From the IMG/VR virus record IMGVR_UViG_3300050123_000043, positions 1 to 64,000 of that record: 64,000 nucleotides of DNA; one strand, given 5' to 3'. Numbering within the stretch: the first letter of the stretch is position 1; the number at the start of each line of letters is the position of its first letter. The position numbers were made by a program, and so were the translations under genes. Below, piece by piece: positions 10,721-23,519 of the stretch. The notes below the pieces were generated by a model. The model ran no database searches. It was not told the DNA's origin and saw only the letters and a program-made list of their open reading frames with translations. This DNA is from a virus (lineage: Duplodnaviria > Caudoviricetes).

Positions 10721-11047
10721 ATGTATAATTTTTTAAAAGCAACACTTGATAGTGTTAACCAGTTGAGTCCCAAACCAGAAGAGTATTTTATAACTACTAT
10801 AAAAGGAACCGAACACCTTCCATTGGCTGTTGTAAATTCAGAAGGTAAACAAGGGGTTCAATTTAATCTTTATAATGAAAATGGAATCTATATAGGATTT
10901 AAAACATTCTTTTTTAGTACTTTAATTAGCATAGAACATTATAAATCATTTCCTGTTAAACCCGAATCTTTTTTAGCTAAGGACACTCCAACAACCCTGG
11001 AACAACTCGTTAAAGGATGCGTAGATAGAAAATCTAACGGATTATAA
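10721..11047 (+). CDS. Hypothetical protein
   Basis: Start trimmed to MYNFLK. Confidence 0.55.
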   Translation: MYNFLKATLDSVNQLSPKPEEYFITTIKGTEHLPLAVVNSEGKQGVQFNLYNENGIYIGFKTFFFSTLISIEHYKSFPVKPESFLAKDTPTTLEQLVKGCVDRKSNGL

Positions 11048-11056
11048 ATCAATTAT

Positions 11057-11272
11057 ATGGCAGCTAAAAAAGAAACTAGAAAATCATTTTGTATTACGGC
11101 TAAAATTAGTATCACCACATGTATTGAAGTTTATGCTAATACTTTTACTGAAGCTGTAGATTTATCAAGAGGTTTAAGCATAGAGAATTTTGTTGAAGTC
11201 ATTGGAGATCAGATTGATAGTGACTTCGGTATAGAAGGTATTTCTGCTTTTCCTAACACAGCAACTCTTTAA
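11057..11272 (+). CDS. Hypothetical protein
   Basis: ORF in run. Confidence 0.55.
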   Translation: MAAKKETRKSFCITAKISITTCIEVYANTFTEAVDLSRGLSIENFVEVIGDQIDSDFGIEGISAFPNTATL

Positions 11273-11437
11273 TTATGTACGAAGATTTATTAAAGGACCC
11301 TCCCGACACTGAGGAGGACATTCCAGACATTCTTCAACCCCCAGGCCCCGGAGTTCCGGTAGCCGGTCTGTGCTTTGCTGAAAGATTATAACAAAACTCA
11401 GTGATAATTATCATTGGATTTTGTGATAAAAATAAAA

Positions 11438-11459
11438 TTATAACAAAATTTTGTTATAA
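11438..11459. promoter_or_regulatory. 22-bp palindromic operator-like site TTATAACAAAATTTTGTTATAA
   Basis: Perfect palindrome; copies or variants at 11386, 19348, 20304, 20344, 26063, 26085, 40783, 42231, 42302, 56364, 56427. Confidence 0.8.
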
Positions 11460-11461
11460 AA

Positions 11462-11493
11462 TTTGGTAGATTAAAAAATTCTTCTTAGGTTTG
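11462..11493 (+). promoter_or_regulatory. Bacteroidota sigma-A promoter upstream of tRNA block 1
   Basis: TTTG-N20-TAGGTTTG. Confidence 0.75.
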
Positions 11494-11511
11494 TAGTCTA
11501 AATGATTTTTT

Positions 11512-11637
11512 ATGGTAGTAGGTATAATAATTGGTTTCGTTGCTGGCTTTGTATTGGCATTTGGAATCTTTCATAATAACAAAGCTAAAGCTGATGCGCT
11601 TGTTACAACCGTAGAAGCTGAAGCAAAAAAAGTTTAA
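11512..11637 (+). CDS. Small single-TM protein (41 aa)
   Basis: MVVGIIIGFVAGFVLAFGIFHNNKAKADALVTTVEAEAKKV. Confidence 0.55.
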   Translation: MVVGIIIGFVAGFVLAFGIFHNNKAKADALVTTVEAEAKKV

Positions 11638-11668
11638 TCAAATGGGTGGAGACGCTTAAAATATTACA

Positions 11669-11764
11669 ATGCAACAATTTACAATGATAGTGGATAATAG
11701 AATTAATGCCGGAGGCAACGAGAAATCTGCCCCAGGGAATCTATTATTTGACACTAGAGGATAA
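11669..11764 (+). CDS. Attenuator leader peptide 1 (MQQFTMIVDNRINAGGNEKSAPGNLLFDTRG)
   Basis: Codons 6-19 encode only block-1 amino acids; overlaps the antiterminator arm. Confidence 0.75.
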   Translation: MQQFTMIVDNRINAGGNEKSAPGNLLFDTRG

Positions 11765-11783
11765 AAGTACATCAAATAATTTG

Positions 11784-11820
11784 AAACCCTGGGGCCAGAA
11801 AGCTCCGGGGTTTTTTGTTT
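11784..11820 (+). terminator. Attenuator terminator 1
   Basis: AAACCCTGGGGC-CAGAAA-GCTCCGGGGTTT plus U-tract; 5' arm also pairs with GCCCCAGGG at 11729-11737. Confidence 0.85.
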
Positions 11821-11825
11821 TATAT

Positions 11826-11898
11826 ACCCTTGTAGCAAACTGGCCGTAGGCAAGAGACTTTTAATCTCTGGGGTTTGGTTCGATTCCAAACGGGGGTA
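11826..11898 (+). tRNA. tRNA-Lys(TTT)
   Basis: Cloverleaf; AGAGA-CTTTTAA-TCTCT. Confidence 0.9.
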
Positions 11899-11925
11899 CT
11901 TTTTCAGTTTATAAGCTTAAAATCC

Positions 11926-11996
11926 TCCTCTGAAGCATTAAAGTGATGCTCCAGACTCTTAATCTGGAGAACTTGGATCGGTACCAGGCAGGGGAA
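11926..11996 (+). tRNA. tRNA-Lys(CTT)
   Basis: CCAGA-CTCTTAA-TCTGG; atypical T-loop ATCGGTA. Confidence 0.85.
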
Positions 11997-12041
11997 CAAA
12001 TGATAAAGATGCGGAGATTAAACCGGTTATTCTCCGCAAAC

Positions 12042-12113
12042 ACATCCTTAGCTCATCGGTAGAGTGGGGCTTTTACACGGCTTAGGTAGAGGGTTCAATT
12101 CCTTCAGGATGTA
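12042..12113 (+). tRNA. tRNA-Val(TAC)
   Basis: Acceptor ACATCCT/AGGATGT; loop TTTACAC; G-U-rich anticodon stem. Confidence 0.8.
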
Positions 12114-12169
12114 CATAATGACCGTCATAACGAACATTTTTAGGCGACAATGTTCGTTATAACAAACAT

Positions 12170-12240
12170 TTTCTCTTCGTTTAATGGAAGGACGACTCGC
12201 TTCTAACGAGTAGGCGGGGTTTCGACTACCTCAGAGAAAA
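12170..12240 (+). tRNA. tRNA-Arg(TCT)
   Basis: ACTCG-CTTCTAA-CGAGT. Confidence 0.85.
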
Positions 12241-12245
12241 CTTAA

Positions 12246-12316
12246 GGCTTGTTAGCTCAACGGCAGAGCGTCCGGTTGTTAACCGGTTGATAATTGTTCG
12301 ATTCAATTACTGGCCT
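12246..12316 (+). tRNA. tRNA-Asn(GTT)
   Basis: CCGG-TTGTTAA-CCGG. Confidence 0.85.
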
Positions 12317-12326
12317 CAAAAATTTA

Positions 12327-12358
12327 TTTGGATTTGACACATATTTATCCTATTTTTG
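12327..12358 (+). promoter_or_regulatory. Internal sigma-A promoter for the nuclease gene
   Basis: TTTG-N20-TATTTTTG. Confidence 0.7.
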
Positions 12359-12364
12359 TGTCAA

Positions 12365-13171
12365 ATGAAACTAAAATTCACAGAAGAAGGGCATTCGTAT
12401 GAGTCAATTCCAGCCGTTTCCTGGACTTCTGTGACTAAACTAGTAGAAAGCTACTGCAATCCTTTTGACGAGAAGGATCAAGCTCTGAGGAGTTCACAGA
12501 ATACGAAATCAAAGTGGTTTGGAATGGACCCAGTGGAGATTATCAAACTCTGGAAGGCTGAAAACCTTCGTTCCACTGATGCCGGAACCTGGGTCCACAA
12601 CAAATGGGAAAAAAATGTTAGCTCTTTAAAGCACAAAGAGTGGGAAGGGAAGAAATTAAAAGTTTTTCCTGGAAAATGGGAAGGAGAAACTAAAATTGCA
12701 CCAGCCCAGGAACTTGAAGAAGGGGTTTACTCTGAACATATTATATATAATGAAAATCTTCAGGTGTGTGGACAGGCTGATATTGTTAATGTTAGGGATG
12801 GTTTTGTAGATATTATTGATTATAAGACTAGTAAGGAGATTGAGGACCACTCTTATGGATTCAAGTATGGAAATGCGAGTATGATGTTGGAACCGGTGAA
12901 CCATTTAGAGGATTGCAACCTTTCTCATTATGTTCTTCAGCTTGGTATCTATATGAGGCTCATCCTGTTAAAGAATCCGGCTCTGAAACCTGGTAAACTG
13001 ATCCTCATTCATGTAAAAATGGATATTAATGAGCTTGATCAATATGGATTTCCTATCCTAAAAAGGACAAAAGAAAACGGATATAAAATTAAAAGAACAA
13101 AAAATTATAATATAAAATACATTGAGAATGAAGTTCGTAGTGTATTAAAAGATCATTATTTAAAATTGTAG
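12365..13171 (+). CDS. PD-(D/E)XK (Cas4/RecB-like) exonuclease
   Basis: SVT, GTWVH, CGQADIV, IIDYKT and YxLQLxxY motifs. Confidence 0.85.
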   Translation: MKLKFTEEGHSYESIPAVSWTSVTKLVESYCNPFDEKDQALRSSQNTKSKWFGMDPVEIIKLWKAENLRSTDAGTWVHNKWEKNVSSLKHKEWEGKKLKVFPGKWEGETKIAPAQELEEGVYSEHIIYNENLQVCGQADIVNVRDGFVDIIDYKTSKEIEDHSYGFKYGNASMMLEPVNHLEDCNLSHYVLQLGIYMRLILLKNPALKPGKLILIHVKMDINELDQYGFPILKRTKENGYKIKRTKNYNIKYIENEVRSVLKDHYLKL

Positions 13172-13316
13172 GGTGGCGAAATTGGTAGACGCAACCGCTT
13201 GTCTCGCGGTCGTGGATAAGGAAATAGATAGTAGATAGACGGTTGACCAGCAATGAATTAACTTCTTTTGTCTACTGTTGAATCCCCACTTAATGGTTCG
13301 ACTCCATTTTCTACAG
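13167..13316 (+). ncRNA. tRNA-like RNA (GTC anticodon) with an ~80-nt structured variable-arm insertion
   Basis: Acceptor TGTAGGG/TTCTACA, class-II-type D arm, ACCGC-TTGTCTC-GCGGT, T arm AATGG-TTCGACT-CCATT. Confidence 0.75.
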
Positions 13317-13322
13317 CTATAT

Positions 13323-13396
13323 TGCGGGATAGAGAAGTGGTCTATCTCAAGGGTCTCATAAGCCCTACATCGTCAGTTCGAATCTGGCTCCCGCAA
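13323..13396 (+). tRNA. tRNA-Met(CAT), initiator-like acceptor
   Basis: TGCGGGA/TCCCGCA; AGGGT-CTCATAA-GCCCT. Confidence 0.85.
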
Positions 13397-13401
13397 CTTT
13401 T

Positions 13402-13472
13402 GCGCCATACGCATTCCGGTAGTGTGCCTGGCTTCCAACCAGGATGAGTCGGTTCGATTCCGACATGACGCA
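13402..13472 (+). tRNA. tRNA-Gly(TCC)
   Basis: CCTGG-CTTCCAA-CCAGG. Confidence 0.85.
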
Positions 13473-13476
13473 CTAA

Positions 13477-13548
13477 GGGAGAAATGCGAGTTCGATTCTC
13501 GCTCTGTCGGCTTCGGCTGACGGATAGTCCAGTGGCTAAGACGCTCCC
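13477..13548 (+). ncRNA. Circularly permuted tRNA-like RNA (acceptor closed by UUCG, no anticodon loop)
   Basis: Order: GGGAG, T arm, TCTGTCGGC-TTCG-GCTGACGGA, D arm, CTCCC. Confidence 0.8.
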
Positions 13549-13555
13549 GTTTTTT

Positions 13556-13626
13556 GACGGGTTCTTATATTGGTAGTAATCTTGGCCTTCACCCAGGAAA
13601 AGACAGTTCGATTCTGTCACTCGTTA
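13556..13626 (+). tRNA. tRNA-Glu(TTC)
   Basis: CTTGG-CCTTCAC-CCAGG (C33). Confidence 0.8.
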
Positions 13627-13632
13627 CACTTT

Positions 13633-13707
13633 CGGAGATCGGTCCGGCCAGGAACGGATGTCGCCTTGTCACGGCGAAGACCGTGGGTTCAAATCCCACA
13701 TTTCCGG
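13633..13707 (+). tRNA. tRNA-Asp(GTC)
   Basis: TCGCC-TTGTCAC-GGCGA; G73. Confidence 0.85.
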
Positions 13708-13833
13708 CAATCCAACTCTCACGCCATAATTTTATGGCGCACCAGGAGAATGAATGAAGTACGACATAGGCCCCCGTAGGTCATTCACGGTGTTTTTAAC
13801 AATTTCACAAGGTTACGAAAAATTGTTTTCTAT

Positions 13834-13911
13834 ATTGGGATAATTCAGTCTGGTCAGAATGCCTGGCTTATATCCAGGTAGTCATTGGTTCAAATCCAAT
13901 TCCCAATACCA
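13834..13911 (+). tRNA. tRNA-Ile(TAT) with encoded CCA
   Basis: CCTGG-CTTATAT-CCAGG; ATTGGGA/TCCCAAT-ACCA. Confidence 0.85.
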
Positions 13912-13979
13912 GTTCGTACAAAGGCACGAATTATTAAAAGATTCGTGCAAATACACAATTTGCAAATTGCGAATTGCAC

Positions 13980-14053
13980 TGACCTATGGCGCAGTTTGGT
14001 AGCGCAGCACTCTGATAAGGTGAAGGTCCCTGGTTCAAATCCAGGTGGGTCAA
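13980..14053 (+). tRNA. tRNA-Ile(GAT)
   Basis: Loop CTGATAA; canonical D and T arms. Confidence 0.9.
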
Positions 14054-14114
14054 CTCTGTTCATATTTTTTCTCTGTTCACGGAAACGCGAACACAGAGAA
14101 AATGTGAACAACCT

Positions 14115-14188
14115 GGGGCCGCATGTTCCGTAGTGGCGAGTCTCACTTGCAATGAGACTGTGATAGGGTGCAACTCCCTTGGGTTCCA
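14115..14188 (+). tRNA. tRNA-Ala(TGC), atypical D and T arms
   Basis: TCTCA-CTTGCAA-TGAGA; G3:U70 present. Confidence 0.75.
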
Positions 14189-14263
14189 CTTATTTTTTTC
14201 CCAAATTTGGAAATGTGAAAAATTTTCGCTATATTGAAATCTTCACATCCAAATTTAAATAAT

Positions 14264-14755
14264 ATGTTAAAGTCCCTCCTAGACAATCCAGAGAAGACCT
14301 TTTTTGGCAAGCTTAGAAACATTGGTTTTGTATTTGCACTGGAATTAATTTACTTAAGTATCATTATTTTTTTATTAAAACAGTTCGATCCTTTTGATTT
14401 AGATAATTTTATACATTCATATAGTTTGCCACATGTAATAGACGCTAATGCTATCGGAATGGTTTTCTTTGCTTGCGTTTGGGCACCCATCTGGGAAGAA
14501 GCGGCTTTCAGGTATGCTCCTATTACGATTGCCAAGAACTTTGGACCCCAATATTTGCTCCCGGTTATAATTATTAGCAGCGTTTTATTTGGTTGGGGAC
14601 ATGGAGATGGGCCTATTAGCCTTCTTATACAGGGAGTTGGGGGATTCTTGTTTTCCCTTCTTTATATCAAAAACGGGTTTAGCTATAAATCTTCAGTAGC
14701 TGCCCACTTCCTTTGGAACGCCTTTCTCATGCTTGCGCTTCCAGTAATAGTTTAA
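14264..14755 (+). CDS. CPBP (CAAX/Abi) family intramembrane metalloprotease
   Basis: APIWEEAAFR, FGWGH and AAHFLWN motifs. Confidence 0.85.
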   Translation: MLKSLLDNPEKTFFGKLRNIGFVFALELIYLSIIIFLLKQFDPFDLDNFIHSYSLPHVIDANAIGMVFFACVWAPIWEEAAFRYAPITIAKNFGPQYLLPVIIISSVLFGWGHGDGPISLLIQGVGGFLFSLLYIKNGFSYKSSVAAHFLWNAFLMLALPVIV

Positions 14756-14811
14756 AATTTATTTTGTAATATCAATTCTTTTAAGTACTTTAGGGTCATA
14801 ATTTAGTTATT

Positions 14812-15588
14812 ATGGCCCTAATTGCTATGGCGGTATATTCCACTGAGGAGAACGGAAAAAATGAATATCTGGATAGAACTCTTCAATCATTAGAAGAGAC
14901 TGTAGATTTTACAAAACATCGTTTAATTCTATCTGTTAATGCTTACACAGCAGAAACTCTTTTGATTTTCAGGAAATTTAAAGGAATGTTTACTCTTATT
15001 TTTAATGATTATAATTTAGGAACCGCTGAAGCAATTAATCTTGCCTGGAAAGATCAATGGCCGAATGAGAATCTTATCAAGATGGACGATGATGTGATTT
15101 TTCACGCTAATGGATGGGTTGATCGCATGGAAGAAGCGATTCAGAGAGATCCAACGATAGGTCAATGTGGTCTAAAAAGAAGAGATTGTACAGAAACCCC
15201 CTGGAACCCCGATCCCTTTTATAAATCAAAACTTGAAATGCTTCCTCACTCTCCCGGTGAAAAGTGGATTGTGGTAGAAGAAGTATCCCACGTTATGGGG
15301 ACTTGCGTTATGCATTCCTCCGCACTACTTGACAAAGTAGGATACCTTTATCAACCAAAACTTTATGGCTTTGATGATTCGTTCATGAGTCTTCGGTCCC
15401 GGATCGCGGGATTTAGGAATGTATTTTTGCCTGGTATAGATATTGAACATATTGATAGAGGAGATACTGGGTTCCAAAAATGGAAAGAGAAACATGCTGG
15501 AGAGTGTTGGCAAGAATATATGCAAGTGGTAAGAGATTATACATCAGGTAAAAAAAGTGTTTATTATAATCCATTCGAAAATGAATGA
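14812..15588 (+). CDS. Glycosyltransferase family 2
   Basis: NLGTAEAIN, KMDDD and YGFDD motifs (GT-A fold). Confidence 0.85.
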   Translation: MALIAMAVYSTEENGKNEYLDRTLQSLEETVDFTKHRLILSVNAYTAETLLIFRKFKGMFTLIFNDYNLGTAEAINLAWKDQWPNENLIKMDDDVIFHANGWVDRMEEAIQRDPTIGQCGLKRRDCTETPWNPDPFYKSKLEMLPHSPGEKWIVVEEVSHVMGTCVMHSSALLDKVGYLYQPKLYGFDDSFMSLRSRIAGFRNVFLPGIDIEHIDRGDTGFQKWKEKHAGECWQEYMQVVRDYTSGKKSVYYNPFENE

Positions 15589-16267
15589 TACAATAGTTCT
15601 TACTGCGATATATCATGAGTTTTGGGGAACGCATCACTTTAGAAAATCTGTTGAGAGGGTTGGTCTTGATGTCTATAATGTATTTCCTCCAGATGTTCCA
15701 TTTAAAGGAAATGGTTTTATTTATCAATACTTTTACAAAGCTTTTTTAGATCTTAAAGATAAATACAAAACAGTTATTTATTCGGATGGAGCAGATACAG
15801 TTTTTCAAAAAGCATTTGTACCACCAACCGATAGAATAATTTATTCTGTTGAAAAAGCAATATGGCCTCCTCTTCCGCATCTTAAAGATCTTTATGAAAA
15901 TTATTATAATAAACCTTGGCGTAGAAATGATTGGCCCTGGAAATATTTGAATGGTGGAAATTGGTGTGGTCCTGTTGATCTTCTAATTGAATTCTATGAA
16001 AGATACGGATTGAAAGATTTGACTGGAGATATAAATGGTCAGAAGGAACAAGCTGAAGCATTTATGAAAGCAGATGAAAATTTATTTCCTATTACCTTTG
16101 ATCTTCGTTGTGAATATTTTCAAACAACAGGTTTTGAAAACGTAGGGGATTTTAGTTTAGCAGAAGACAGAAAATCAATTATAAATAACTTAACAGGCAC
16201 CACCCCATGTGTCTTACACGGTAACGGTCGAACCGATATGGGTCCTATTTATGAACGCTGGAAATAA
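15581..16267 (+). CDS. PLOD/procollagen-glycosyltransferase-like GT domain protein
   Basis: YSDGADT, SVEKAIWP, YLNGG and HGNG motifs. Confidence 0.7.
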   Translation: MNDTIVLTAIYHEFWGTHHFRKSVERVGLDVYNVFPPDVPFKGNGFIYQYFYKAFLDLKDKYKTVIYSDGADTVFQKAFVPPTDRIIYSVEKAIWPPLPHLKDLYENYYNKPWRRNDWPWKYLNGGNWCGPVDLLIEFYERYGLKDLTGDINGQKEQAEAFMKADENLFPITFDLRCEYFQTTGFENVGDFSLAEDRKSIINNLTGTTPCVLHGNGRTDMGPIYERWK

Positions 16268-16931
16268 ACCAAACATTGTTATCATCGGTGGTGGTAATCA
16301 TGCTCAGTATTGTATTGACATTATTGAAAGAGAAGGCAAGTACAATATCATAGGGATTATTGATTCAATCAAAAACCTTGGAGATGATGTATTCGGATAT
16401 AAGGTTATTGGAAAACAAGAACACGTAAATTCTCTTTCAGATACTTATGGTTTTACGGCAGGTATAATTACAGTAGGAGATAACTGGGCAAGATATAAAA
16501 TATATTCAGATATTATTGAAACTTATCCCTCATTTACATTTGTAAACGCAATTCATCCTTCAGTAATAATAGGCAATAATGTAAAGATAGGTAAAGGAGT
16601 AATAGCAATGGCGGGTGTAATATTTAATCCTGGAGCAAATATTGGAGATTTTACTTTCTTTGCAACAGGTGCTCAAGTGGAACATGATTGTTATATTGGA
16701 GATTTCGCAAGTATATCCGCAGGATCTGTTCTTGGTGGTCATGTTCATATAGGAGACTTTGCTGCTATTACTCTAGGAGTAACAATAGTTGATCGCGTTA
16801 CCATTGGAAAAAATACAGTAATTGGATCAGGATCTCTTGTAACAAAAGATATACCAGACAATGTTTTGGCTTATGGAAGTCCTGCGAAAATAATAAGAAC
16901 AAGAGAACCAGGCGAAAGATTTTTAAAATAA
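16251..16931 (+). CDS. NeuD/PglD-family sugar acetyltransferase
   Basis: IIGGGNHA, hexapeptide repeats, VEHDC, GSPAK. Confidence 0.9.
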   Translation: MNAGNKPNIVIIGGGNHAQYCIDIIEREGKYNIIGIIDSIKNLGDDVFGYKVIGKQEHVNSLSDTYGFTAGIITVGDNWARYKIYSDIIETYPSFTFVNAIHPSVIIGNNVKIGKGVIAMAGVIFNPGANIGDFTFFATGAQVEHDCYIGDFASISAGSVLGGHVHIGDFAAITLGVTIVDRVTIGKNTVIGSGSLVTKDIPDNVLAYGSPAKIIRTREPGERFLK

Positions 16932-16935
16932 TAAC

Positions 16936-17727
16936 ATGTCACCATCCCACGCAATAGAATTAAACCATAGAGGTTATACTATTATACCAAATTTGATACC
17001 GCCTATTATTGTTGATGGATTGAGATATGCGTTGAACTTTTCATTTGATAAACACAGACAGATACAAATTGATAATAATAATGATATAGTTACGGAAGGC
17101 GTTGCTCTACATGTTTTATTAGATAATAGAAGATTTATTGAATTCTTACAATATCTTATGTTTGATATTAAGTTGTATTCCTTTCTGGAAGAAAATTATT
17201 TTAAATCAAAATTCATATTGAATTCGATGAGTGGCTTGAATAACTTACCAAACCAACCAAACTTTTCGTCCATAGTTCACCGTGATTTGAGATTTTATAC
17301 TGGCGAAATACCAGTCATGATAAATGCCCTTGTGATGGTTGACGAATTCACTGAAGATAATGGTCCCACCTTGTTATTACCATATTCTCATATTGATTTC
17401 GAAGAAAAACCAACCAATGAATACTTTCGAAGAAGTTCAGTGAAAGCTCTCGGTGAAGCCGGTAGTGTTTTATTATTTAATGCAAACGTTTGGCACGCAT
17501 CTAGCTTAAATACTTCTCGTAACGGAAGAAGAGCATTACCAATAACATTCACTAAATCACTTATAAAGCAGTTATTGGATTATCCCAGGGCTTTAGGATA
17601 CGATAGAATGGAAAGCTTTAGCGAACCAATGCAACAGCTTCTTGGGTATCATGCCCGTGTACCAGCCAACTTAGATGAATGGTATCAACCTTTTGATAAA
17701 CGATTTTATAAAAAAAACCAAGATTAA
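16936..17727 (+). CDS. Phytanoyl-CoA dioxygenase-family 2OG-Fe(II) oxygenase
   Basis: HRD, FTEDNGPT..PYSH, WH..S.N and RRA motifs. Confidence 0.85.
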   Translation: MSPSHAIELNHRGYTIIPNLIPPIIVDGLRYALNFSFDKHRQIQIDNNNDIVTEGVALHVLLDNRRFIEFLQYLMFDIKLYSFLEENYFKSKFILNSMSGLNNLPNQPNFSSIVHRDLRFYTGEIPVMINALVMVDEFTEDNGPTLLLPYSHIDFEEKPTNEYFRRSSVKALGEAGSVLLFNANVWHASSLNTSRNGRRALPITFTKSLIKQLLDYPRALGYDRMESFSEPMQQLLGYHARVPANLDEWYQPFDKRFYKKNQD

Positions 17728-17737
17728 AATAAACCAT

Positions 17738-17983
17738 ATGCCAATATTAATTTCTCGAAAACAGAATATAGTTCGATCATATACTTTTGAACTTAATCCA
17801 ATAGAAACTCAAAAATTTGAAGATGAGATTTTGAGTAATTTTTGGGATGCAACCAAAATTCCTGAAGACGAAAGAGCAGAGTTCAAAGTAACGTATACTA
17901 TAGATTTTTATAAAAAACCAGTAGAAGAAGAACCCCAACCCCAGGATGGGTCACATATTATACTAGGATTACCTTCTATCTAA
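17738..17983 (+). CDS. Hypothetical protein
   Basis: Start trimmed to MPILIS. Confidence 0.5.
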   Translation: MPILISRKQNIVRSYTFELNPIETQKFEDEILSNFWDATKIPEDERAEFKVTYTIDFYKKPVEEEPQPQDGSHIILGLPSI

Positions 17984-17985
17984 TA

Positions 17986-18017
17986 TTTGGTAATTTCAAT
18001 TATTTTACATATATTTG
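17986..18017 (+). promoter_or_regulatory. Sigma-A promoter of tRNA block 2
   Basis: TTTG-N20-TATATTTG. Confidence 0.8.
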
Positions 18018-18021
18018 TTTT

Positions 18022-18090
18022 ATGAAACATATCAATTCATATTATTCACTGAGTCTACTCTTATCGTCTTACGATACGGACCTGGGATAA
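18022..18090 (+). CDS. Attenuator leader peptide 2 (MKHINSYYSLSLLLSSYDTDLG)
   Basis: 12 consecutive Ser/Tyr/Leu codons upstream of the Leu/Ser/Tyr tRNAs. Confidence 0.8.
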   Translation: MKHINSYYSLSLLLSSYDTDLG

Positions 18091-18125
18091 TATTGAATTA
18101 ACCGAACTGATTCGGAAAAGTTATT

Positions 18126-18159
18126 ACCCTGGGATTTTTATCCTGGGGTTTTTTGTTTT
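18126..18159 (+). terminator. Attenuator terminator 2
   Basis: ACCCTGGGAT-TTTT-ATCCTGGGGT plus U-tract. Confidence 0.85.
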
Positions 18160-18233
18160 AGGGATGTGCTGCAATTGGTAGATAGCTACGCCTCAAAAGC
18201 GCATGTGTGTGGGTTCGAATCCCTCCTTCCCTA
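18160..18233 (+). tRNA. tRNA-Leu(CAA), short variable arm
   Basis: Loop CTCAAAA. Confidence 0.8.
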
Positions 18234-18262
18234 CTAAAAGCGTTACTAACGCTTTTCAGTAT

Positions 18263-18342
18263 ACCTTCGTGACTTATACGAAATGGCACAGTTACCGGTC
18301 TTAGAAACCGGGTCCTTGTGGGTTCGACTCCCACCGAAGGTA
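18263..18342 (+). tRNA. tRNA-Leu(TAG), short variable arm
   Basis: CCGGT-CTTAGAA-ACCGG. Confidence 0.85.
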
Positions 18343-18379
18343 CAATGTTTCCCTTATTAATGAGGTAAACAATTTATAA

Positions 18380-18459
18380 CCCTCTGTGGCTTATAGAAAT
18401 AGGTACACTTAACCGACTTAAAATCGGAGCTTGTCATGGTTCGAATCCATGCAGGGGGA
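18380..18459 (+). tRNA. tRNA-Leu(TAA), short variable arm
   Basis: CCGA-CTTAAAA-TCGG. Confidence 0.8.
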
Positions 18460-18464
18460 CATAC

Positions 18465-18551
18465 GGAAGGCCCCAGTTGACTGAGGTACACGGTCCTGAA
18501 CACCGCTAGGAGGCTAATACCCTTGTAAGAGTTGGACTCTCTTGCTTTCCG
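18465..18551 (+). tRNA. tRNA-Ser(TGA)
   Basis: GGAAGGC/GCTTTCC-G; loop CCTGAAC; long variable arm. Confidence 0.75.
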
Positions 18552-18669
18552 CTTTATATCTTTTAACATATAAAATCAGTAATATATTACCGATTATATC
18601 TAATAACGTATAATAAGGTAGAATATTTTGCAACAATCGGCAATTTATTACCGATTTTGCCGAAAGTTT

Positions 18670-18753
18670 GGAAAGTTAATTAGCAAGAGCTAACCCTCCC
18701 CGCTAAGGAGTGGGACCGGGAAACTGGTTGTGGTTCGTGTCCACAACTTTCCG
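18670..18753 (+). tRNA. tRNA-Ser(GCT)
   Basis: GGAAAGT/ACTTTCC-G; loop CCGCTAA; long variable arm. Confidence 0.8.
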
Positions 18754-18765
18754 CAAGAGGAAACA

Positions 18766-18797
18766 TTTGGAAGTTTCCTCTTTATTTCGTATGTTTG
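18766..18797 (+). promoter_or_regulatory. Internal sigma-A promoter for the HNH gene
   Basis: TTTG-N20-TATGTTTG. Confidence 0.7.
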
Positions 18798-18801
18798 TAA
18801 A

Positions 18802-19248
18802 ATGAAAAAGATATGTTCAAAATGCAATATTGAAAAAGAAGTACAAGATTTCAATAAACGCACAAACAGTAAAGACGGATATGATCCAAGATGTAGAACT
18901 TGTACAAAAGAACGAGATGTTTTAAGATATACTAAAAATCCCAAACTTTTTAAAGAAAGGGCAAAAGTTAAAAACACTTTTATAAGAGATAGAAACAGAC
19001 AATTTTTAATTGAATATTTAATTGATAAATCATGTATTGATTGTGGAGAAACCGATGCTGTTGTATTGGAGTTCGATCATATAGAACCTTCAACAAAAAT
19101 TGATTGTATTTCAGAAATGATTCCACGATCAAGTATTGAAAATATTAAAACTGAATTAAATAAATGTGAAATAAGATGTGCAAATTGTCATAGAAGAAAA
19201 ACAGCTAAACAATTTGGCTGGAAAAGAAAACACCTGGAATTATGTTAA
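18802..19248 (+). CDS. HNH endonuclease with N-terminal Zn-finger
   Basis: CSKC/CRTC; CIDCG..LEFDH..CANCH. Confidence 0.85.
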   Translation: MKKICSKCNIEKEVQDFNKRTNSKDGYDPRCRTCTKERDVLRYTKNPKLFKERAKVKNTFIRDRNRQFLIEYLIDKSCIDCGETDAVVLEFDHIEPSTKIDCISEMIPRSSIENIKTELNKCEIRCANCHRRKTAKQFGWKRKHLELC

Positions 19249-19272
19249 GATTAGATAAAACTTTACTCTTAT

Positions 19273-19343
19273 TGATTGAATACCAGGGCAGTAGGCACTG
19301 TCTGTAAAACAGAGGCACGTAGGTTCGAGTCCTACTCAGTCAA
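19273..19343 (+). tRNA. tRNA-Tyr(GTA), short variable arm
   Basis: CTGT-CTGTAAA-ACAG; TGATTGA/TCAGTCA. Confidence 0.8.
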
Positions 19344-19370
19344 CAAATTATAACTGAATTTTGTTATAAA

Positions 19371-19402
19371 TTTGGAAATTTGAAAAAGTATTATTAAGTT
19401 TG
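19371..19402 (+). promoter_or_regulatory. Sigma-A promoter of tRNA block 3
   Basis: TTTG-N20-TAAGTTTG, abutting a 22-bp palindrome variant at 19348-19369. Confidence 0.8.
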
Positions 19403-19413
19403 CAGTTAAGATT

Positions 19414-19506
19414 ATGAAACAGACTATCAACACGCGATTTTTTTGGCATCAACCGACCCCTCAAGGTCCAAGGGCTAAAGTTATGCGTGATACAGATATA
19501 GGTTAA
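19414..19506 (+). CDS. Attenuator leader peptide 3 (MKQTINTRFFWHQPTPQGPRAKVMRDTDIG)
   Basis: 11 consecutive Thr/Arg(CGA)/Phe/Trp/His/Gln/Pro codons upstream of those tRNAs. Confidence 0.8.
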   Translation: MKQTINTRFFWHQPTPQGPRAKVMRDTDIG

Positions 19507-19534
19507 ATAATCTCTTTTCTGCTTGCAACTTTTC

Positions 19535-19570
19535 AACCCTTGATTTTTCTAAACCGAGGGTTTTTTATTT
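19535..19570 (+). terminator. Attenuator terminator 3
   Basis: AACCCTTGATTT-TTCT-AAACCGAGGGTT plus U-tract. Confidence 0.8.
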
Positions 19571-19646
19571 CTAGTAATGGAGGAGTCCGGCCATCCTCGC
19601 GTGCCCTGGAAGCATGAGAACCCAGGTTCAAATCCTGGTTACTAGA
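19571..19646 (+). tRNA. tRNA-Pro(TGG)
   Basis: CGTGC-CCTGGAA-GCATG; C1:G72, A73. Confidence 0.85.
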
Positions 19647-19651
19647 CAAAT

Positions 19652-19723
19652 TCCTCTTAAGCTTTAATGGTGAAGCTCCAGTTTTGTAAACTGGTGAATG
19701 GGGATCGTTACCTCAAAGAGGAT
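19652..19723 (+). tRNA. tRNA-Thr(TGT)
   Basis: CCAGT-TTTGTAA-ACTGG. Confidence 0.85.
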
Positions 19724-19807
19724 CGAAGCCGGTTACCAAAATGTAAAAAAGCCGCCAGAACGTGTCTGGTTACTTGTTAAGACAAGTTGTAAAAAAGTTT
19801 GGGTTAT

Positions 19808-19882
19808 GTGTCTTGGGCAGGTCTGGTGACATTGCATCCGTTTGAAGAACGGACTAACAAGGTTCGATTCCTTGAGGATACG
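19808..19882 (+). tRNA. tRNA-Phe(GAA)
   Basis: TCCGT-TTGAAGA-ACGGA (G37). Confidence 0.8.
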
Positions 19883-19887
19883 CTTAT

Positions 19888-19959
19888 TCCTGGATCGTAT
19901 AACGTGTAGTACAGCCGTCTCTGACACGGTTAGCAATTGTTCGACTCAGTTTCCGGGAA
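19888..19959 (+). tRNA. tRNA-Gln(CTG)
   Basis: GCCGT-CTCTGAC-ACGGT. Confidence 0.85.
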
Positions 19960-19964
19960 CTTAA

Positions 19965-20035
19965 ACCCCTTTAGCATAAAGGTAATGCTGGTGGCCTTGA
20001 CCCACCAGAAGTTCGGTCGGTACGAGCAGGGGGTT
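19965..20035 (+). tRNA. tRNA-Gln(TTG)
   Basis: GGTGG-CCTTGAC-CCACC. Confidence 0.8.
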
Positions 20036-20037
20036 CT

Positions 20038-20107
20038 GTGAATCTAGTTCAATGGTAGAACGGCTGGCTGTGAACCAGGCAATTAGGGTTCGATCCCCGG
20101 TTTCACA
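20038..20107 (+). tRNA. tRNA-His(GTG)
   Basis: CTGG-CTGTGAA-CCAG; lacks the G-1:C73 pair. Confidence 0.8.
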
Positions 20108-20153
20108 CAACGCATGAATTTTTAATAAAAATTCATGCAAAATATTAACATAA

Positions 20154-20225
20154 CCTCCTTTCGTTCAACGAATAGGACCTCTGGCAACGAACCAGAAAAT
20201 AAAGGTTTGATTCCTTTAGGGAGGT
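20154..20225 (+). tRNA. tRNA-Arg(ACG)
   Basis: TCTGG-CAACGAA-CCAGA (A33). Confidence 0.8.
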
Positions 20226-20230
20226 CAATT

Positions 20231-20299
20231 ACGTGCCAGGCTAAGGCAGCCAAGCAAACTCCAAATCTGTAGGAGATAGTTCGATTCTATCGGTGCGTG
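20231..20299 (+). tRNA. tRNA-Trp(CCA)
   Basis: Loop CTCCAAA; ACGTGCC/GGTGCGT-G. Confidence 0.8.
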
Positions 20300-20791
20300 C
20301 AAATTATAACAAAAAGCAATTATAATTACTTTTTGTGATAATATTCACACAAAATTTTGTGATAAATGTTGGAAGTGTCAAAAGTATTGTTTTACTTTGC
20401 ACCCAACTTTCACCAGTAAAGGACACGCCACCACGAAAAAACAATGATATGAAGTGGCGCAACTACGTCCTGCCAATCTATGGCCCCAGTTTGGGAGGGG
20501 GGCCGGGGGGAGGGCCTCAACCCTTCATATTATTGATTTATAATACGTTAAATGATTACTGGTTAAATAGTTGGCCTGGTAAAGCTTATAAATTTGGTTA
20601 TGTGCTTTGAATTACATATATTTACAGAGGTAAAAAGCACAAAAAATATAAAAAGAGATTCAAGGAATCAATTTAAGATATTACCATCAAAAAAACACCT
20701 ATCTGGTTATAATCAAAAAACGTAATCTGCGTCCATTTAAAACGTTTAAGCAGATGGCGGTGAATTAGGTGACACCGTTTCCCGGTGGTAT

Positions 20792-20820
20792 AAAAGATGC
20801 AATTTATTGCATCTTTTTTT
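20792..20820 (+). terminator. Intrinsic terminator
   Basis: AAAAGATGCAAT-TT-ATTGCATCTTTT plus T-tract. Confidence 0.7.
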
Positions 20821-20874
20821 ATTTAACATAGTCTTAACTTGGTTTTATAATAAAAAACTGTTACATTTGCAAGT

Positions 20875-21222
20875 ATGAGAGCGTTGAAGATAGAAAAAAA
20901 GACTGATTCGAAAACTCAACAGATAAAGCTTGTATTATCAATCATTTGTCTATTAAACAATATTAATCTCTCAGAAACAGACTATATAGTTCTTGCTTTT
21001 TTTATTCAATATAAAATGAGTCACAAAACCGATGATTTGATAATAAAGAGTGGGGTTGTAAAGAACTTGGATGTTTTAAGGAATGTTAAAACCAGGTTAT
21101 GTAAGAAGGGATTTTTAAAAAGAGATCTTAAAGAATACAAAACCTATGATTTAAACATGAGTGCGGGGGAGTTCAATTGGGAAGACAATGATATTCGATT
21201 AATTATAAAACTCAATAATTGA
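20875..21222 (+). CDS. Hypothetical protein, possible winged-helix DNA-binding protein
   Basis: LSETDYIVLAF..NVKTRLCKKGFL pattern; promoter-like TTG-N20-TACATTTG upstream. Confidence 0.5.
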   Translation: MRALKIEKKTDSKTQQIKLVLSIICLLNNINLSETDYIVLAFFIQYKMSHKTDDLIIKSGVVKNLDVLRNVKTRLCKKGFLKRDLKEYKTYDLNMSAGEFNWEDNDIRLIIKLNN

Positions 21223-21572
21223 AAAATATTGACTATATAATTTTGAAGACCTCCAGGGACATGGATATTCCTAAAGAAAAGGTTAAGGTAATAGTGGATG
21301 CCTATTGGGACGGAGTGTATAAAAAACTTTTAAATTTAGATTCTACAACTGTTTTTATAAGGAATGTGGGGCTGATAACAATAAGTAAATTTAAATTAAG
21401 AAAGTTTATTTATAAATTTATTGATAAAATAAGATTTTTAAATAAAGGAGATAATTATTCTGAACAACAAAAACAAAAACTCAATCCTCTTTATATTAAA
21501 AAATTGAGGAAGGCTCTTTTTCAAAGAAATATTATTGCTAAAGACTACGCTAAAAAATTTGGAAACACATGA
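21219..21572 (+). CDS. HU/IHF-like DNA-binding protein
   Basis: Helix-helix followed by VFIRNVGLI (HU-type VxIxxFGxF); TTG start. Confidence 0.55.
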   Translation: MKNIDYIILKTSRDMDIPKEKVKVIVDAYWDGVYKKLLNLDSTTVFIRNVGLITISKFKLRKFIYKFIDKIRFLNKGDNYSEQQKQKLNPLYIKKLRKALFQRNIIAKDYAKKFGNT

Positions 21573-21961
21573 GTTTAAGAAAAACTTTTGGTGAGTATTT
21601 GGAAATGGTGAAGAATGGTTTTAAAAACAAAGATAAGATCATTGAAGCAATGCAGGTTTCTGCTATGATAAAGAATGGTCTGGTAATTGGGGATGGATTG
21701 GAAGTTACTAATGAGGCTATTGCTGAGATACTTAAAAGGATAGATATTTGTGCTGAGTGTCCTTTCAATAGTAGACATGCAAAGAAAGGATCTTACACAT
21801 CCACTTTACCTTTTGAACATTGTACTCTTTGTAAATGCAGGATAGGATATGACGATAGCAAGGAATATTGTTTGAGTTGTAATTGTGGAGCCGAAGCCTG
21901 GAATGAAATGAATCCTGATATGGAACCGATGGAAGTGAAATGGACTGCATTTAAAAATTAA
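21569..21961 (+). CDS. Cys-rich Zn-binding protein
   Basis: RIDICAECP..CTLCKC..CLSCNC. Confidence 0.65.
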   Translation: MSLRKTFGEYLEMVKNGFKNKDKIIEAMQVSAMIKNGLVIGDGLEVTNEAIAEILKRIDICAECPFNSRHAKKGSYTSTLPFEHCTLCKCRIGYDDSKEYCLSCNCGAEAWNEMNPDMEPMEVKWTAFKN

Positions 21962-21972
21962 AAATAAATATT

Positions 21973-22790: not shown

Positions 22791-22795
22791 AAATT

Positions 22796-23065: not shown

Positions 23066-23073
23066 CATATTTT

Positions 23074-23430: not shown

Positions 23431-23431
23431 C

Positions 23432-23507: not shown

Positions 23508-23519
23508 CAAAAAAATAAT

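What the first reader, a model, noticed from the sequence alone, without database searches (positions are those of the whole stretch)
11669..11820. Attenuator 1: 14 consecutive purine-starting codons cover all ten amino acids of block 1
Codons 6-19 (11684-11725) are ATG ATA GTG GAT AAT AGA ATT AAT GCC GGA GGC AAC GAG AAA. The downstream tRNAs are Lys x2, Val, Arg(TCT), Asn, Met, Gly, Glu, Asp, Ile(TAT), Ile(GAT) and Ala. ATA and ATT match the two Ile tRNAs. Antiterminator: GCCCCAGGG (11729-11737) is the perfect complement of terminator arm CCCTGGGGC (11787-11795), supported by an inner ATTATTTGA/TCAAATAAT pair. Caveats: a ribosome stalled on the last codons would cover part of the antiterminator, and an internal promoter at 12327 may feed the distal tRNAs independently.
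Basis: partly seen in the sequence, partly recalled or inferred. Interest (0 to 1): 0.85.

Follow-up and report, generated by a model that had tools for sequence, protein, structure and literature searches.

The report
Phage tRNA genes gated by codon-list leaders
A phage places, in front of each cluster of its tRNA genes, a tiny gene whose codons list exactly the amino acids served by those tRNAs, followed by a stop signal for transcription, so it probably switches its tRNA genes on only when decoding runs short.

Summary
The window is part of a 97.8-kb crAss-like phage from peat metagenomes.

Leader ORF 11669-11764 holds a 14-codon run (11684-11725). It is the only run in all six frames of the genome that is made solely of the ten amino acids of the downstream tRNA block and contains all ten.

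Two sister units sit at 18022 and 19414. Their leaders list Leu/Ser/Tyr and Pro/Thr/Phe/Gln/His/Arg/Trp, matching their own tRNA blocks.

I found 24 such leaders in 13 phage genomes or contigs, plus one more in L087 that was not part of the counts. The cultured Cellulophaga phage phi17:2 and Leptolyngbya phage Lbo-JY46 are among them.
- The partition of tRNAs into blocks differs between phages, and each leader tracks its own block: 18 of 19 with strict tRNA calls, 19 of 19 with relaxed calls.
- Each leader ends 18-36 nt before a hairpin plus T-run that abuts the first tRNA.
- The leader's tail is complementary to its own terminator's 5' arm; 0 of 20000 permutations match this.

Best reading: ribosome-mediated transcription attenuators that control tRNA genes. 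Nothing here is experimental. Eight literature searches found no prior description. I file it as a new variant of a known kind, of high interest.

The parts
11438..11459 (.). Palindrome TTATAAC-N8-GTTATAA just upstream of the promoter; operator-like, role unknown
   Evidence: 4 copies in the window, 0 expected from shuffles. 3 of the 4 abut a promoter pattern.
11462..11493 (+). Promoter-like site TTTG-N20-TAGGTTTG of unit 1
   Evidence: Only 8 matches to this pattern on the + strand of the 97.8-kb genome; 5 of them lie in the tRNA region. The same pattern lies upstream of 19 of 24 leaders.
11512..11637 (+). 41-aa ORF between promoter and leader 1 (apparently a single membrane helix)
   Evidence: ORF list. 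Look-alike small ORFs sit in the same position in L087 and in L010 and L011.
11669..11764 (+). Leader ORF 1, MQQFTMIVDNRINAGGNEKSAPGNLLFDTRG*
   Evidence: Homologous leader in L087, MQTLIMIVDNGINGRANEKHGSGDSMYYDDL.
11684..11725 (+). Regulatory codon run: 14 codons, 10 amino-acid kinds, equal to the amino acids of tRNA block 1
   Evidence: The only one of 99 such runs in six frames that has all ten kinds. 14 of 14 codons are readable by a tRNA of the block if U34 reads all four bases of a family box.
11729..11752 (+). Antiterminator 5' strand (segment 2): GCCCCAGGG core plus ATTATTTGA
   Evidence: Duplex of -21.5 kcal/mol with the terminator 5' arm; 0 of 300 codon shuffles reach it. Present in the MFE fold.
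11772..11795 (+). Segment 3: TCAAATAAT plus CCCTGGGGC. It pairs either with segment 2 (antiterminator) or with segment 4 (terminator)
11802..11821 (+). Terminator 3' arm GCTCCGGGG (11802-11810) and T-run T6GT4 (11811-11821)
   Evidence: Local hairpin of -21.3 kcal/mol. The tRNA-Lys starts at 11826.
11826..14189 (+). tRNA block 1: Lys, Lys, Val, Arg(tct), Asn, [nuclease ORF 12365-13171], Met, Gly, Glu, Asp, Ile(tat), Ile(gat), Ala(tgc)
12327..12358 (+). Internal promoter pattern before the PD-(D/E)XK nuclease ORF; it may feed the distal tRNAs of block 1
17986..18159 (+). Sister unit 2: promoter 17986-18017; leader 18022-18090, MKHINSYYSLSLLLSSYDTDLG*; terminator arms 18127-18135 and 18140-18148; T-run to 18159
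18160..19344 (+). tRNA block 2: Leu(caa), Leu(tag), Leu(taa), degenerate Ser(tga), Ser(gct), [HNH ORF with its own promoter at 18766], Tyr(gta)
19371..19570 (+). Sister unit 3: promoter 19371-19402; leader 19414-19506, MKQTINTRFFWHQPTPQGPRAKVMRDTDIG*; terminator arms 19537-19542 and 19555-19560; T-run from 19561
19571..20300 (+). tRNA block 3: Pro, Thr, Phe, Gln(ctg), Gln(ttg), His, Arg(acg), Trp(cca)
   Evidence: Trp is called only at the relaxed threshold.

Best explanation
Region 11669-11821 is one of three ribosome-mediated (leader-peptide) transcription attenuators in this phage. Each one gates a block of tRNA genes.

Proposed mechanism (inferred, not shown):
- Transcription starts at a promoter upstream of the leader. 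No promoter pattern lies between the terminator and the first tRNA, a gap of about 5-15 nt, so tRNA transcription from that promoter needs read-through.
- A ribosome translates the leader, whose early codons are a catalogue of the codons read by the tRNAs encoded downstream.
- If every one of these codons is decoded quickly, the ribosome runs over the G-rich segment 2 and on to the stop codon. Segment 3 is then left free to pair with segment 4. The hairpin plus T-run ends transcription a few bases before the first tRNA.
- If decoding of any listed codon is slow, the ribosome stalls on the list. This happens when the tRNA is scarce, uncharged or destroyed. Segment 2 stays free and pairs with segment 3, the terminator cannot form, and the tRNA block is transcribed.
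- The products (tRNAs) relieve the stall, so each block would regulate itself by negative feedback.

Shown here: the anatomy, its recurrence, the co-variation of the leader list with tRNA content, and the co-variation of segment 2 with segment 3. Inferred: that the leader is translated, that termination is regulated, and what signal is sensed.
For: (a) Uniqueness. The run at 11684 is the only one of 99 six-frame runs that contains all ten amino acids of block 1, with 0.07 expected. The longest {L,S,Y}-only run in the genome is leader 2: 12 residues, tied with one antisense low-complexity run. The longest {P,T,F,Q,H,R,W}-only run is leader 3: 11 residues with all 7 kinds, next best 9.

(b) Recurrence. 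There are 24 counted leaders in the window plus 12 other phage genomes or contigs. These are L003 (Lbo-JY46), L004 (Cellulophaga phi17:2), L007 (L008 carries the same leader), L009, L010, L011, L012, L019 (L020 likewise), L027, L054 and L060. L087 adds one more homologous leader that was not part of these counts.

(c) Specificity. In genomes with two or more leaders, the leader scores best on its own block in 18 of 19 cases with strict tRNA calls. With relaxed calls it is 19 of 19, against a chance expectation of 7.0. Over 24 leaders x 20 amino acids, the amino acid occurs in codons 2-18 in 131 of 155 cases where its tRNA is in the block. Where the tRNA is not in the block the figure is 104 of 325 (odds ratio 11.6, Fisher p = 2e-28). 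The cells are not independent, because some loci are related.

(d) Composition is kept, not order. Compare TRFFWHQPTPQ (window), TRQHTQFWFPT (Lbo-JY46), TRTHTQQFWFPT (L009) and FQHTRFWFTQPT (L010).

(e) Prediction. Leaders listed amino acids whose tRNAs default ARAGORN had missed and relaxed calls then found in that very block. These were Ala and Trp in the window, Ser in Lbo-JY46, Ser and Ala in L012, two Ser in L019, and Tyr in L010.

(f) Codon level. 284 of 298 in-set codons are readable by a tRNA of the block if U34 reads four ways; 236 are readable by standard wobble. The codon box matches for Arg in 16 of 18 cases, Ser in 30 of 35 and Leu in 31 of 32.

(g) Terminators. All 23 ATG-start leaders examined have a hairpin plus T-run abutting the first tRNA. 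The distance from the stop codon to the 5' arm is 18-36 nt, median 28.

(h) Antiterminator. The duplex of the leader ORF with its own terminator's 5' arm averages -12.8 kcal/mol. The mismatched leader/terminator pairs average -8.4. 0 of 20000 permutations reach the observed mean. In 16 of 23 instances at most 5% of codon shuffles do as well. Window versus L087 shows a compensatory change: GCCCCAGGG/CCCTGGGGC becomes GGCTCCGGAG/CCCGGAGCC.

(i) Ribosome-mask folding. The 5' arm is more sequestered with the ribosome on codons 4-12 than with it over segment 2 in 23 of 23 instances (means 0.78 vs 0.35). This is partly by construction, because segment 2 was defined by its pairing with that arm. For the window's unit 1, P(terminator) is 0.00 on the run and 0.55 over segment 2.

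(j) Controls. No such leaders were found by the same rule in the tRNA clusters of T5, Vibrio phage phi-ST2, crAss001 or L094.
Against: - There is no experimental or RNA evidence. Translation of the leader, termination at the T-run and regulated read-through are all inferred.
- In unit 1 the Glu and Lys codons (18, 19) lie so close to segment 2 that a ribosome stalled there would mask the antiterminator.
- Unit 1 has no evident 1:2 anti-antiterminator. Without any ribosome the antiterminator wins (P(terminator) 0.03), so the element is predicted ON when untranslated. Only 6 of 23 instances show a clear 1:2 effect.
- In several instances equilibrium folding favours the terminator at every ribosome position (phi17_a, L054_1, L010_2, Lbo_C, L009_3). 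A switch there would have to be kinetic.
- Promoter patterns at 12327 and 18766 could transcribe the distal tRNAs of blocks 1 and 2 without passing the attenuators.
- Coverage is imperfect. 17 of 165 tRNA kinds (relaxed calls) are missing from the best segments; for example, Glu is missing from L019 leader 1. The L054 leader does not match its block.
- Each amino acid is represented by only one to three codons, so sensitivity is uncertain.
- Leader 1 is the second cistron, 175 nt from the promoter pattern.
- Whether transcription and translation are coupled in the unknown host is unknown.
Confidence: 0.78

Rival explanations
1. The leaders are translated codon lists, but the output is not regulated termination. 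Ribosome position could instead control processing or stability of the tRNA precursor, for example access of RNase P or RNase E to the first tRNA. Alternatively, the short terminated RNA or the peptide could act in trans.
For: The first tRNA begins only about 5-15 nt after the T-run, so the leader structure could affect 5' processing. In several instances the terminator is favoured at every modelled ribosome position.
Against: The tail of each leader co-varies with its own terminator's 5' arm. That is the signature of an antiterminator and is not needed for a processing model. Peptide order is scrambled between homologues while composition is kept, which argues against a peptide with a fold or a binding function.
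Confidence: 0.1
2. The hairpins are ordinary, constitutive terminators or leaky insulators of a small upstream gene. The tRNAs are made by leaky read-through or from promoters not recognised here. The amino-acid match has another cause, such as the leader serving as a translational test piece without feedback on transcription.
For: Internal promoter patterns exist inside blocks 1 and 2. No RNA data are available.
Against: There is no room for a promoter between the T-run and the first tRNA, and no promoter pattern there. This reading does not explain why the list tracks block content across genomes, why segment 2 matches segment 3, or why the stop-to-terminator spacing is held at 18-36 nt.
Confidence: 0.07
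3. Chance: an AT-rich phage has many small ORFs, and one happened to resemble the tRNA list.
For: For the large ten-amino-acid set, 4 of 975 small ORFs in the genome (counting the leader) score at least as high as leader 1 on a simple segment score.
Against: Leader 1 holds the only run with all ten kinds, with 0.07 expected. The design is replicated three times in the window and in 12 other genomes or contigs. Own-block matching has a chance probability of about 4e-9 if the cases were independent.
Confidence: 0.01

Closest known systems
Leader-peptide (ribosome-mediated) transcription attenuators of amino-acid operons (trp, his, leu, thr, ilv, pheA); named from established knowledge
   Same: A short leader ORF with regulatory codons, an intrinsic terminator before the regulated genes, and an antiterminator that shares a strand with the terminator. 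The read-out depends on where the ribosome sits. Multivalent leaders that mix several amino acids are known (thr: Thr and Ile; ilv: Leu, Val and Ile).
   Different: - The regulated genes are tRNA genes, not enzymes, so the product itself is the thing sensed.
- The leader is a catalogue of 3 to 13 different amino acids with one to three codons each, not a run of one or two.
- It is phage-encoded, with up to three units per genome that partition the tRNA set.
- Many leaders start 4-22 nt after the -7 box, so they are nearly leaderless.
- No Rfam leader family matches. The best hit was L10_leader at 27.3 bits against a gathering score of 44, E = 0.42.
pheST attenuator of E. coli, in which a leader peptide controls an aminoacyl-tRNA synthetase operon (recalled, not checked in a paper here)
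   Same: Leader-peptide attenuation applied to a component of the translation apparatus.
   Different: It has a single amino acid (Phe), protein-coding targets, and is cellular rather than viral.
T-box riboswitches
   Same: Both work like a sensor of tRNA status that decides between a terminator and an antiterminator.
   Different: A T-box binds one uncharged tRNA directly through a specifier codon and the T-box sequence, without translation. It regulates synthetase and amino-acid genes. Here the list lies in an ORF with start and stop codons. RF00230 gave no match at E up to 1.
Polycysteine leaderless short ORFs acting as Cys-responsive attenuators in mycobacteria (bioRxiv 10.1101/834739; title and start of abstract seen in the search listing)
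   Same: Leaderless or nearly leaderless small ORFs whose codon content senses supply and controls downstream genes.
   Different: They have one amino acid, protein-coding targets and a cellular setting. I did not read how that mechanism works.

Membership tests
Ribosome-mediated (leader-peptide) transcription attenuator | Short ORF with start and stop codons upstream of the regulated genes, in the same transcription unit | tested here: met
   ORF 11669-11764. The promoter pattern at 11462 is the only one upstream, and none lies between the terminator and the tRNA. 24 homologous or analogous ORFs.
Ribosome-mediated (leader-peptide) transcription attenuator | Regulatory codons cognate to what the regulated genes supply | tested here: met
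   The codons list the amino acids, and mostly the exact codon boxes, of the downstream tRNAs.
Ribosome-mediated (leader-peptide) transcription attenuator | Intrinsic terminator (GC-rich hairpin plus U-run) between the leader and the regulated genes | tested here: met
   Hairpin of -21.3 kcal/mol plus T6GT4 ending 5 nt before tRNA-Lys. The same holds in all 23 ATG-start leaders examined.
Ribosome-mediated (leader-peptide) transcription attenuator | Antiterminator that competes for the terminator's 5' arm and is exposed or hidden according to ribosome position | tested here: met
   Segment 2:3 duplex of -21.5 kcal/mol. Own versus swapped terminators: -12.8 vs -8.4 kcal/mol, with 0 of 20000 permutations reaching the observed mean. 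Mask folding is a model only.
Ribosome-mediated (leader-peptide) transcription attenuator | Anti-antiterminator (1:2) that gives termination when the leader is not translated | tested here: inconclusive
   Not seen in unit 1 (P(terminator) 0.03 without a ribosome). A clear effect appears in 6 of 23 instances.
Ribosome-mediated (leader-peptide) transcription attenuator | Read-through rises when the cognate charged tRNA is limiting | not testable with these tools
   This needs term-seq, reporter assays or coupled in vitro transcription-translation.
Ribosome-mediated (leader-peptide) transcription attenuator | Regulated genes are amino-acid biosynthesis, transport or synthetase genes (as in all members I know of; recalled) | tested here: not met
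   The regulated genes are tRNA genes. This is the point of novelty. It works like the class, with a different target.
T-box riboswitch (RF00230) | Match to the covariance model (specifier loop, T-box sequence) | tested here: not met
   No RF00230 match at E up to 1 in 11000-24000.
Curated Rfam leader families (His, Leu, Thr, Trp and Phe leaders, Bacteroid-trp and others) | Match to any curated model | tested here: not met
   Apart from tRNA, only sub-threshold chance hits.

The most novel reading that the evidence does not exclude
These are on-demand tRNA supply switches. Each phage tRNA block is autoregulated by a codon-by-codon test of the cell's decoding capacity. The phage would turn on exactly the block that contains a tRNA species that has become limiting. 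The limitation could come from a codon-usage mismatch with the host, from host shut-off, or from host anticodon nucleases that cleave particular tRNAs as a defence. The leader would then be a logical OR gate over up to 13 tRNA species, and it would be the first case of tRNA genes controlled by translation of their own cognate codons.
Probability: 0.5. Interest if true: 0.93.

Novelty: new variant of a known kind. Interest (0 to 1): 0.88.

Why it matters
How phages time and dose their own tRNA genes is largely unknown, and leader-peptide attenuation has been tied to amino-acid and synthetase genes. If this reading holds, the classic trp/his logic has been re-used to sense the supply of many tRNA species at once and to feed back on the tRNA genes themselves.

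- It would give a direct, testable link between phage tRNAs and tRNA depletion during infection, including tRNA-cleaving defence systems.
- It would give an annotation rule. The leader predicts which tRNAs follow, and here it pointed to tRNAs that the default search had missed.
- It could serve as a compact natural part for synthetic circuits that report decoding capacity.
- Two carriers are cultured phages (Cellulophaga phi17:2, Leptolyngbya Lbo-JY46), so experiments are feasible.

Tried and rejected
- blastn (distant mode) of 11400-14300 against the phage collection gave only tRNA-sized hits.
- The nuclease ORF inside block 1, used as a query, gave two IMG/VR loci without tRNAs. They were of no use.
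- The window terminase alone found no IMG/VR relative. An alignment of four terminases did.
- The Rfam scan found no leader family.
- crAss001 (L006), csAssE-Sib (L005), T5 (L099), Vibrio phi-ST2 (L100) and metagenome locus L094 have tRNA clusters but no hairpin+T-run+list leader by my rule. The design is therefore not a general property of phage tRNA clusters. My rule requires an ATG start and a T5 run, so it can miss variants.
- L017's block is cut by the contig end.
- Sequencing runs: no RNA holder was listed.
- Read laying showed only DNA contigs. A strain variant replaces 11717-12047 by 98 other letters, but the letters are not given, so I could not test whether the leader tail changed with the tRNA-Lys genes.
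- The metagenome scan with the PhyH-like protein did not return that near strain. It did return L087, which carries a homologous leader 1.
- Equilibrium folding with a ribosome at the stop codon lets segment 2 pair across the ribosome. This is sterically doubtful, so I do not rely on those values.
- Literature: eight full-text searches found no paper that describes leader peptides or attenuators before phage tRNA genes, and none that mentions Lbo-JY46. I saw listings and abstract starts only and read no paper in full. Supplements were closed and not consulted. Papers outside the held library could still describe this.
Full report
**What the window is.** The window is the first 64 kb of a single 97,828-bp contig with 35.5% G+C. 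Its terminase and portal match crAss-like phage families phrog_6681 and phrog_6547. The nearest named relative by terminase is Leptolyngbya phage Lbo-JY46 at 40.8% identity. Cellulophaga phages phi17:2 and phi4:1 follow at about 29%, then human-gut crAss-like phages. DNA runs that hold the stretch are peat and permafrost metagenomes, and no RNA holder was listed.

**Checking the observation.** Eleven of the twelve tRNAs named are default ARAGORN calls and are confirmed by Rfam's tRNA model. Ala(tgc) at 14116-14189 needs a relaxed threshold, but an Ala(tgc) tRNA closes the same block in relatives. The genome has 99 six-frame runs of at least 10 residues built only from the ten amino acids. The run at 11684 is the only one that contains all ten, and about 0.07 such runs are expected in the whole six-frame space.

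**The decisive internal replicate.** Reading on, I found the same design twice more.
- Unit 2: leader 18022-18090, MKHINSYYSLSLLLSSYDTDLG. It is followed by a hairpin plus T-run and then by Leu(caa), Leu(tag), Leu(taa), a degenerate Ser(tga), Ser(gct) and Tyr.
- Unit 3: leader 19414-19506, MKQTINTRFFWHQPTPQGPRAKVMRDTDIG. It is followed by a hairpin plus T-run and then by Pro, Thr, Phe, Gln, Gln, His, Arg(acg) and Trp.

Genome-wide, the longest run made only of L/S/Y is leader 2 (12 residues, tied with one antisense low-complexity run). The longest run made only of P/T/F/Q/H/R/W is leader 3 (11 residues with all 7 kinds; next best 9). Arg is listed as AGA in leader 1, whose block has Arg(tct). 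It is listed as CGA in leader 3, whose block has Arg(acg).

**Relatives.**
- Lbo-JY46 (L003) has a syntenic tRNA region with three leaders. Its block-1 leader is rich in Cys codons, and its block holds two tRNA-Cys genes. In the window, tRNA-Cys lies elsewhere (23432) and leader 1 has no Cys.
- Cellulophaga phage phi17:2 (L004) partitions its tRNAs differently, and its three leaders follow. QRLHLQELEQP precedes Pro, Glu, Gln, His, Leu, Leu, Arg. TKTGITVIDKTKGARA precedes Ala, Lys, Ile, Gly, Met, Asp, Thr, Val, Arg(tct), Met. NYCTYNNSNWSFSY precedes Tyr, Ser, Ser, Asn, Trp, Phe.
- A terminase alignment brought 80 IMG/VR loci. 13 of them carry at least 3 tRNAs in the fetched flanks.
- A simple rule found listing leaders in 12 of these 13 loci (all but L017). 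The rule asks for a tRNA with more than 90 nt of free upstream sequence, a T5 run within 45 nt, and an ATG ORF of 10-60 aa ending 5-140 nt before the T-run. L017's block is cut by the contig end.
- A metagenome scan added L087, whose leader MQTLIMIVDNGINGRANEK is the closest homologue of leader 1.

**Statistics on 24 leaders.**
- In genomes with two or more leaders, the leader scores best against its own block in 18 of 19 cases with strict tRNA calls. With relaxed calls it is 19 of 19. Chance expectation is 7.0, and the probability would be about 4e-9 if the cases were independent, which related loci are not.
- In the best-scoring segments, 293 of 316 residues belong to the block's set, and 140 of 155 tRNA kinds are covered (strict calls). 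With relaxed calls the figures are 317 of 334 and 148 of 165.
- With a fixed window of codons 2-18 and no tuning, an amino acid is present in the leader in 131 of 155 cases when its tRNA is in the block. When it is not in the block the figure is 104 of 325 (odds ratio 11.6). Much of the background is the common MK start: Lys at codon 2 in 13 of 23.
- 284 of 298 in-set codons can be read by a tRNA of the block if U34 reads four ways; 236 can be read by standard wobble. Most of the remaining misses are ATA codons in blocks with a second CAT-anticodon tRNA, which I take (from general knowledge) to be tRNA-Ile2.
- The leader is the single top-scoring small ORF of its locus in 18 of 24 cases. The exceptions include leader 1 (4 of 975 at least as high, the leader among them) and leader 3 (2 of 975, likewise).
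- Homologous leaders keep composition but scramble order. This is what selection on codon content predicts, and it is not what selection on a peptide predicts.

**Anatomy of the switch.**
- All 23 ATG-start leaders examined are followed by a hairpin plus T-run that ends within about 15 nt of the first tRNA.
- The stop codon lies 18-36 nt (median 28) before the 5' arm. That spacing is far enough that a terminating ribosome should not itself block the hairpin. A paper seen only as a listing (PMC4824070) reports that a terminator placed a few base pairs after a gene is repressed and gains efficiency with distance.
- A segment at about codons 16-23, directly after the list, is complementary to the terminator's 5' arm. 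Own pairs average -12.8 kcal/mol and the mismatched pairs average -8.4. 0 of 20000 permutations reach the observed mean. In 16 of 23 instances at most 5% of codon shuffles do as well.
- Between the window and L087 both strands changed together.
- The G-rich strand explains the Gly-rich tails of the peptides.

For unit 1, equilibrium P(terminator) takes these values:

| Ribosome position | P(terminator) |
|---|---|
| No ribosome | 0.03 |
| A site on codons 4-12 | 0.00 |
| Ribosome covering segment 2 | 0.55 |
| Ribosome at the stop codon | 0.51 |

The stated refutation (terminator favoured at every stall position) therefore does not hold. Across instances I also folded transcripts cut just before the terminator's 3' arm. 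In these, the 5' arm is more sequestered with the ribosome on the list than over segment 2 in 23 of 23 (0.78 vs 0.35). This contrast is partly built in, because segment 2 was defined by that pairing. Equilibrium P(terminator) rises by at least 0.25 in 12 of 23.

Weak points:
- From A-site codon 17 on, the footprint reaches segment 2, so the Glu and Lys codons of leader 1 are badly placed.
- Unit 1 lacks a 1:2 helix.
- Five instances favour the terminator at all positions.

**Transcription units.** The pattern TTTG-N17-23-TAnnTTTG resembles the -33/-7 promoter consensus that I recall for Bacteroidota. It occurs 8 times on the + strand of the genome. Five of these are at 11462, 12327, 17986, 18766 and 19371. 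They lie before unit 1, the nuclease ORF, unit 2, the HNH ORF and unit 3 respectively. The pattern precedes 19 of 24 leaders. In 13 of them the start codon is only 4-22 nt after the -7 box, so they are nearly leaderless. Leader 1 is the exception: a 41-aa membrane-type ORF lies between promoter and leader, as it does in L087, L010 and L011. The two nuclease genes inside blocks 1 and 2 carry their own promoter patterns and look like later insertions. Relatives without them have contiguous blocks under one leader.

**Comparison with what is known.** The element works like the leader-peptide attenuators of amino-acid operons and meets their structural criteria. It differs in three ways: it gates tRNA genes, it uses a catalogue of 3-13 amino acids, and it is a phage device. 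It is not a T-box and matches no Rfam family. Eight literature searches found nothing on leader peptides before tRNA genes. I saw listings only, and the library is incomplete.

**Verdict.** The mechanism is still inferred. I rate it a new variant of a known kind, with confidence 0.78 and interest 0.88.

Noticed in passing
window 11438-11459, 19348-19369, 40783-40804, 56364-56385: The palindrome TTATAAC-N8-GTTATAA occurs 4 times, with 0 expected from shuffles. Three copies sit just upstream of a TTTG..TAnnTTTG promoter pattern, at 11462, 19371 and 40809. It looks like the operator of a dimeric regulator acting on a subset of promoters, including those of attenuators 1 and 3 but not 2.
   Followed up: partly
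window 11512-11637: A 41-aa ORF, apparently a single membrane helix, lies between the promoter and leader 1. Similar small ORFs occupy the same position in L087, L010 and L011. Its function is unknown. Its translation could be coupled to that of the leader.
   Followed up: partly
window 12365-13171 and 18802-19248: A PD-(D/E)XK nuclease and an HNH endonuclease lie inside tRNA blocks 1 and 2. Each has its own promoter pattern, at 12327 and 18766. They are probably mobile insertions that partly uncouple the distal tRNAs from the attenuators.
   Followed up: partly
window 13171-13320, 13474-13555, 18463-18555: These are tRNA-like stretches that default ARAGORN and Rfam do not call. The last aligns best with Ser(tga) tRNAs of relatives but has C at positions 33 and 38 of the anticodon loop. 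The first looks like a tRNA with an insert of about 70 nt. They may be decaying or unusual tRNAs.
   Followed up: partly
window 11717-12047: In contigs of three other peat or permafrost runs, this stretch is replaced by 98 other letters. It covers the tail of leader 1, the terminator and both tRNA-Lys genes. The letters were not shown.
   Followed up: no
L054 6224-8047: The leader lists Leu, Arg, Pro, Ser, Tyr, Gln and His, but only Pro, Val, Gly and Cys tRNAs follow. Compared with L019, this looks like a recent deletion that removed most of one block, the next leader and part of the next block.
   Followed up: no
L003 (Leptolyngbya phage Lbo-JY46) 1780-6120: This phage is filed as infecting a cyanobacterium, yet it carries the same Bacteroidota-looking -33/-7 promoter pattern before its three leaders. 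Either that polymerase reads such promoters or the host assignment deserves a second look.
   Followed up: no
L004 (Cellulophaga phage phi17:2), annotated gp077 and gp078: gp077 is the leader ORF of the second tRNA block, annotated with a TTG start that lies inside the promoter pattern. gp078 overlaps what ARAGORN calls tRNA-Ser(tga). Both are annotated as hypothetical proteins.
   Followed up: partly
window 14264-17727: A cluster lies between tRNA blocks 1 and 2. It holds a CAAX-protease-like membrane protein, two glycosyltransferases, a hexapeptide acetyltransferase and a PhyH-type dioxygenase. These look like auxiliary sugar-modification genes in a phage.
   Followed up: no
window 11826-23508: With the relaxed calls accepted, the phage encodes tRNAs for all 20 amino acids. 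Block 2 holds the long-arm tRNAs (Leu, Ser, Tyr).
   Followed up: partly
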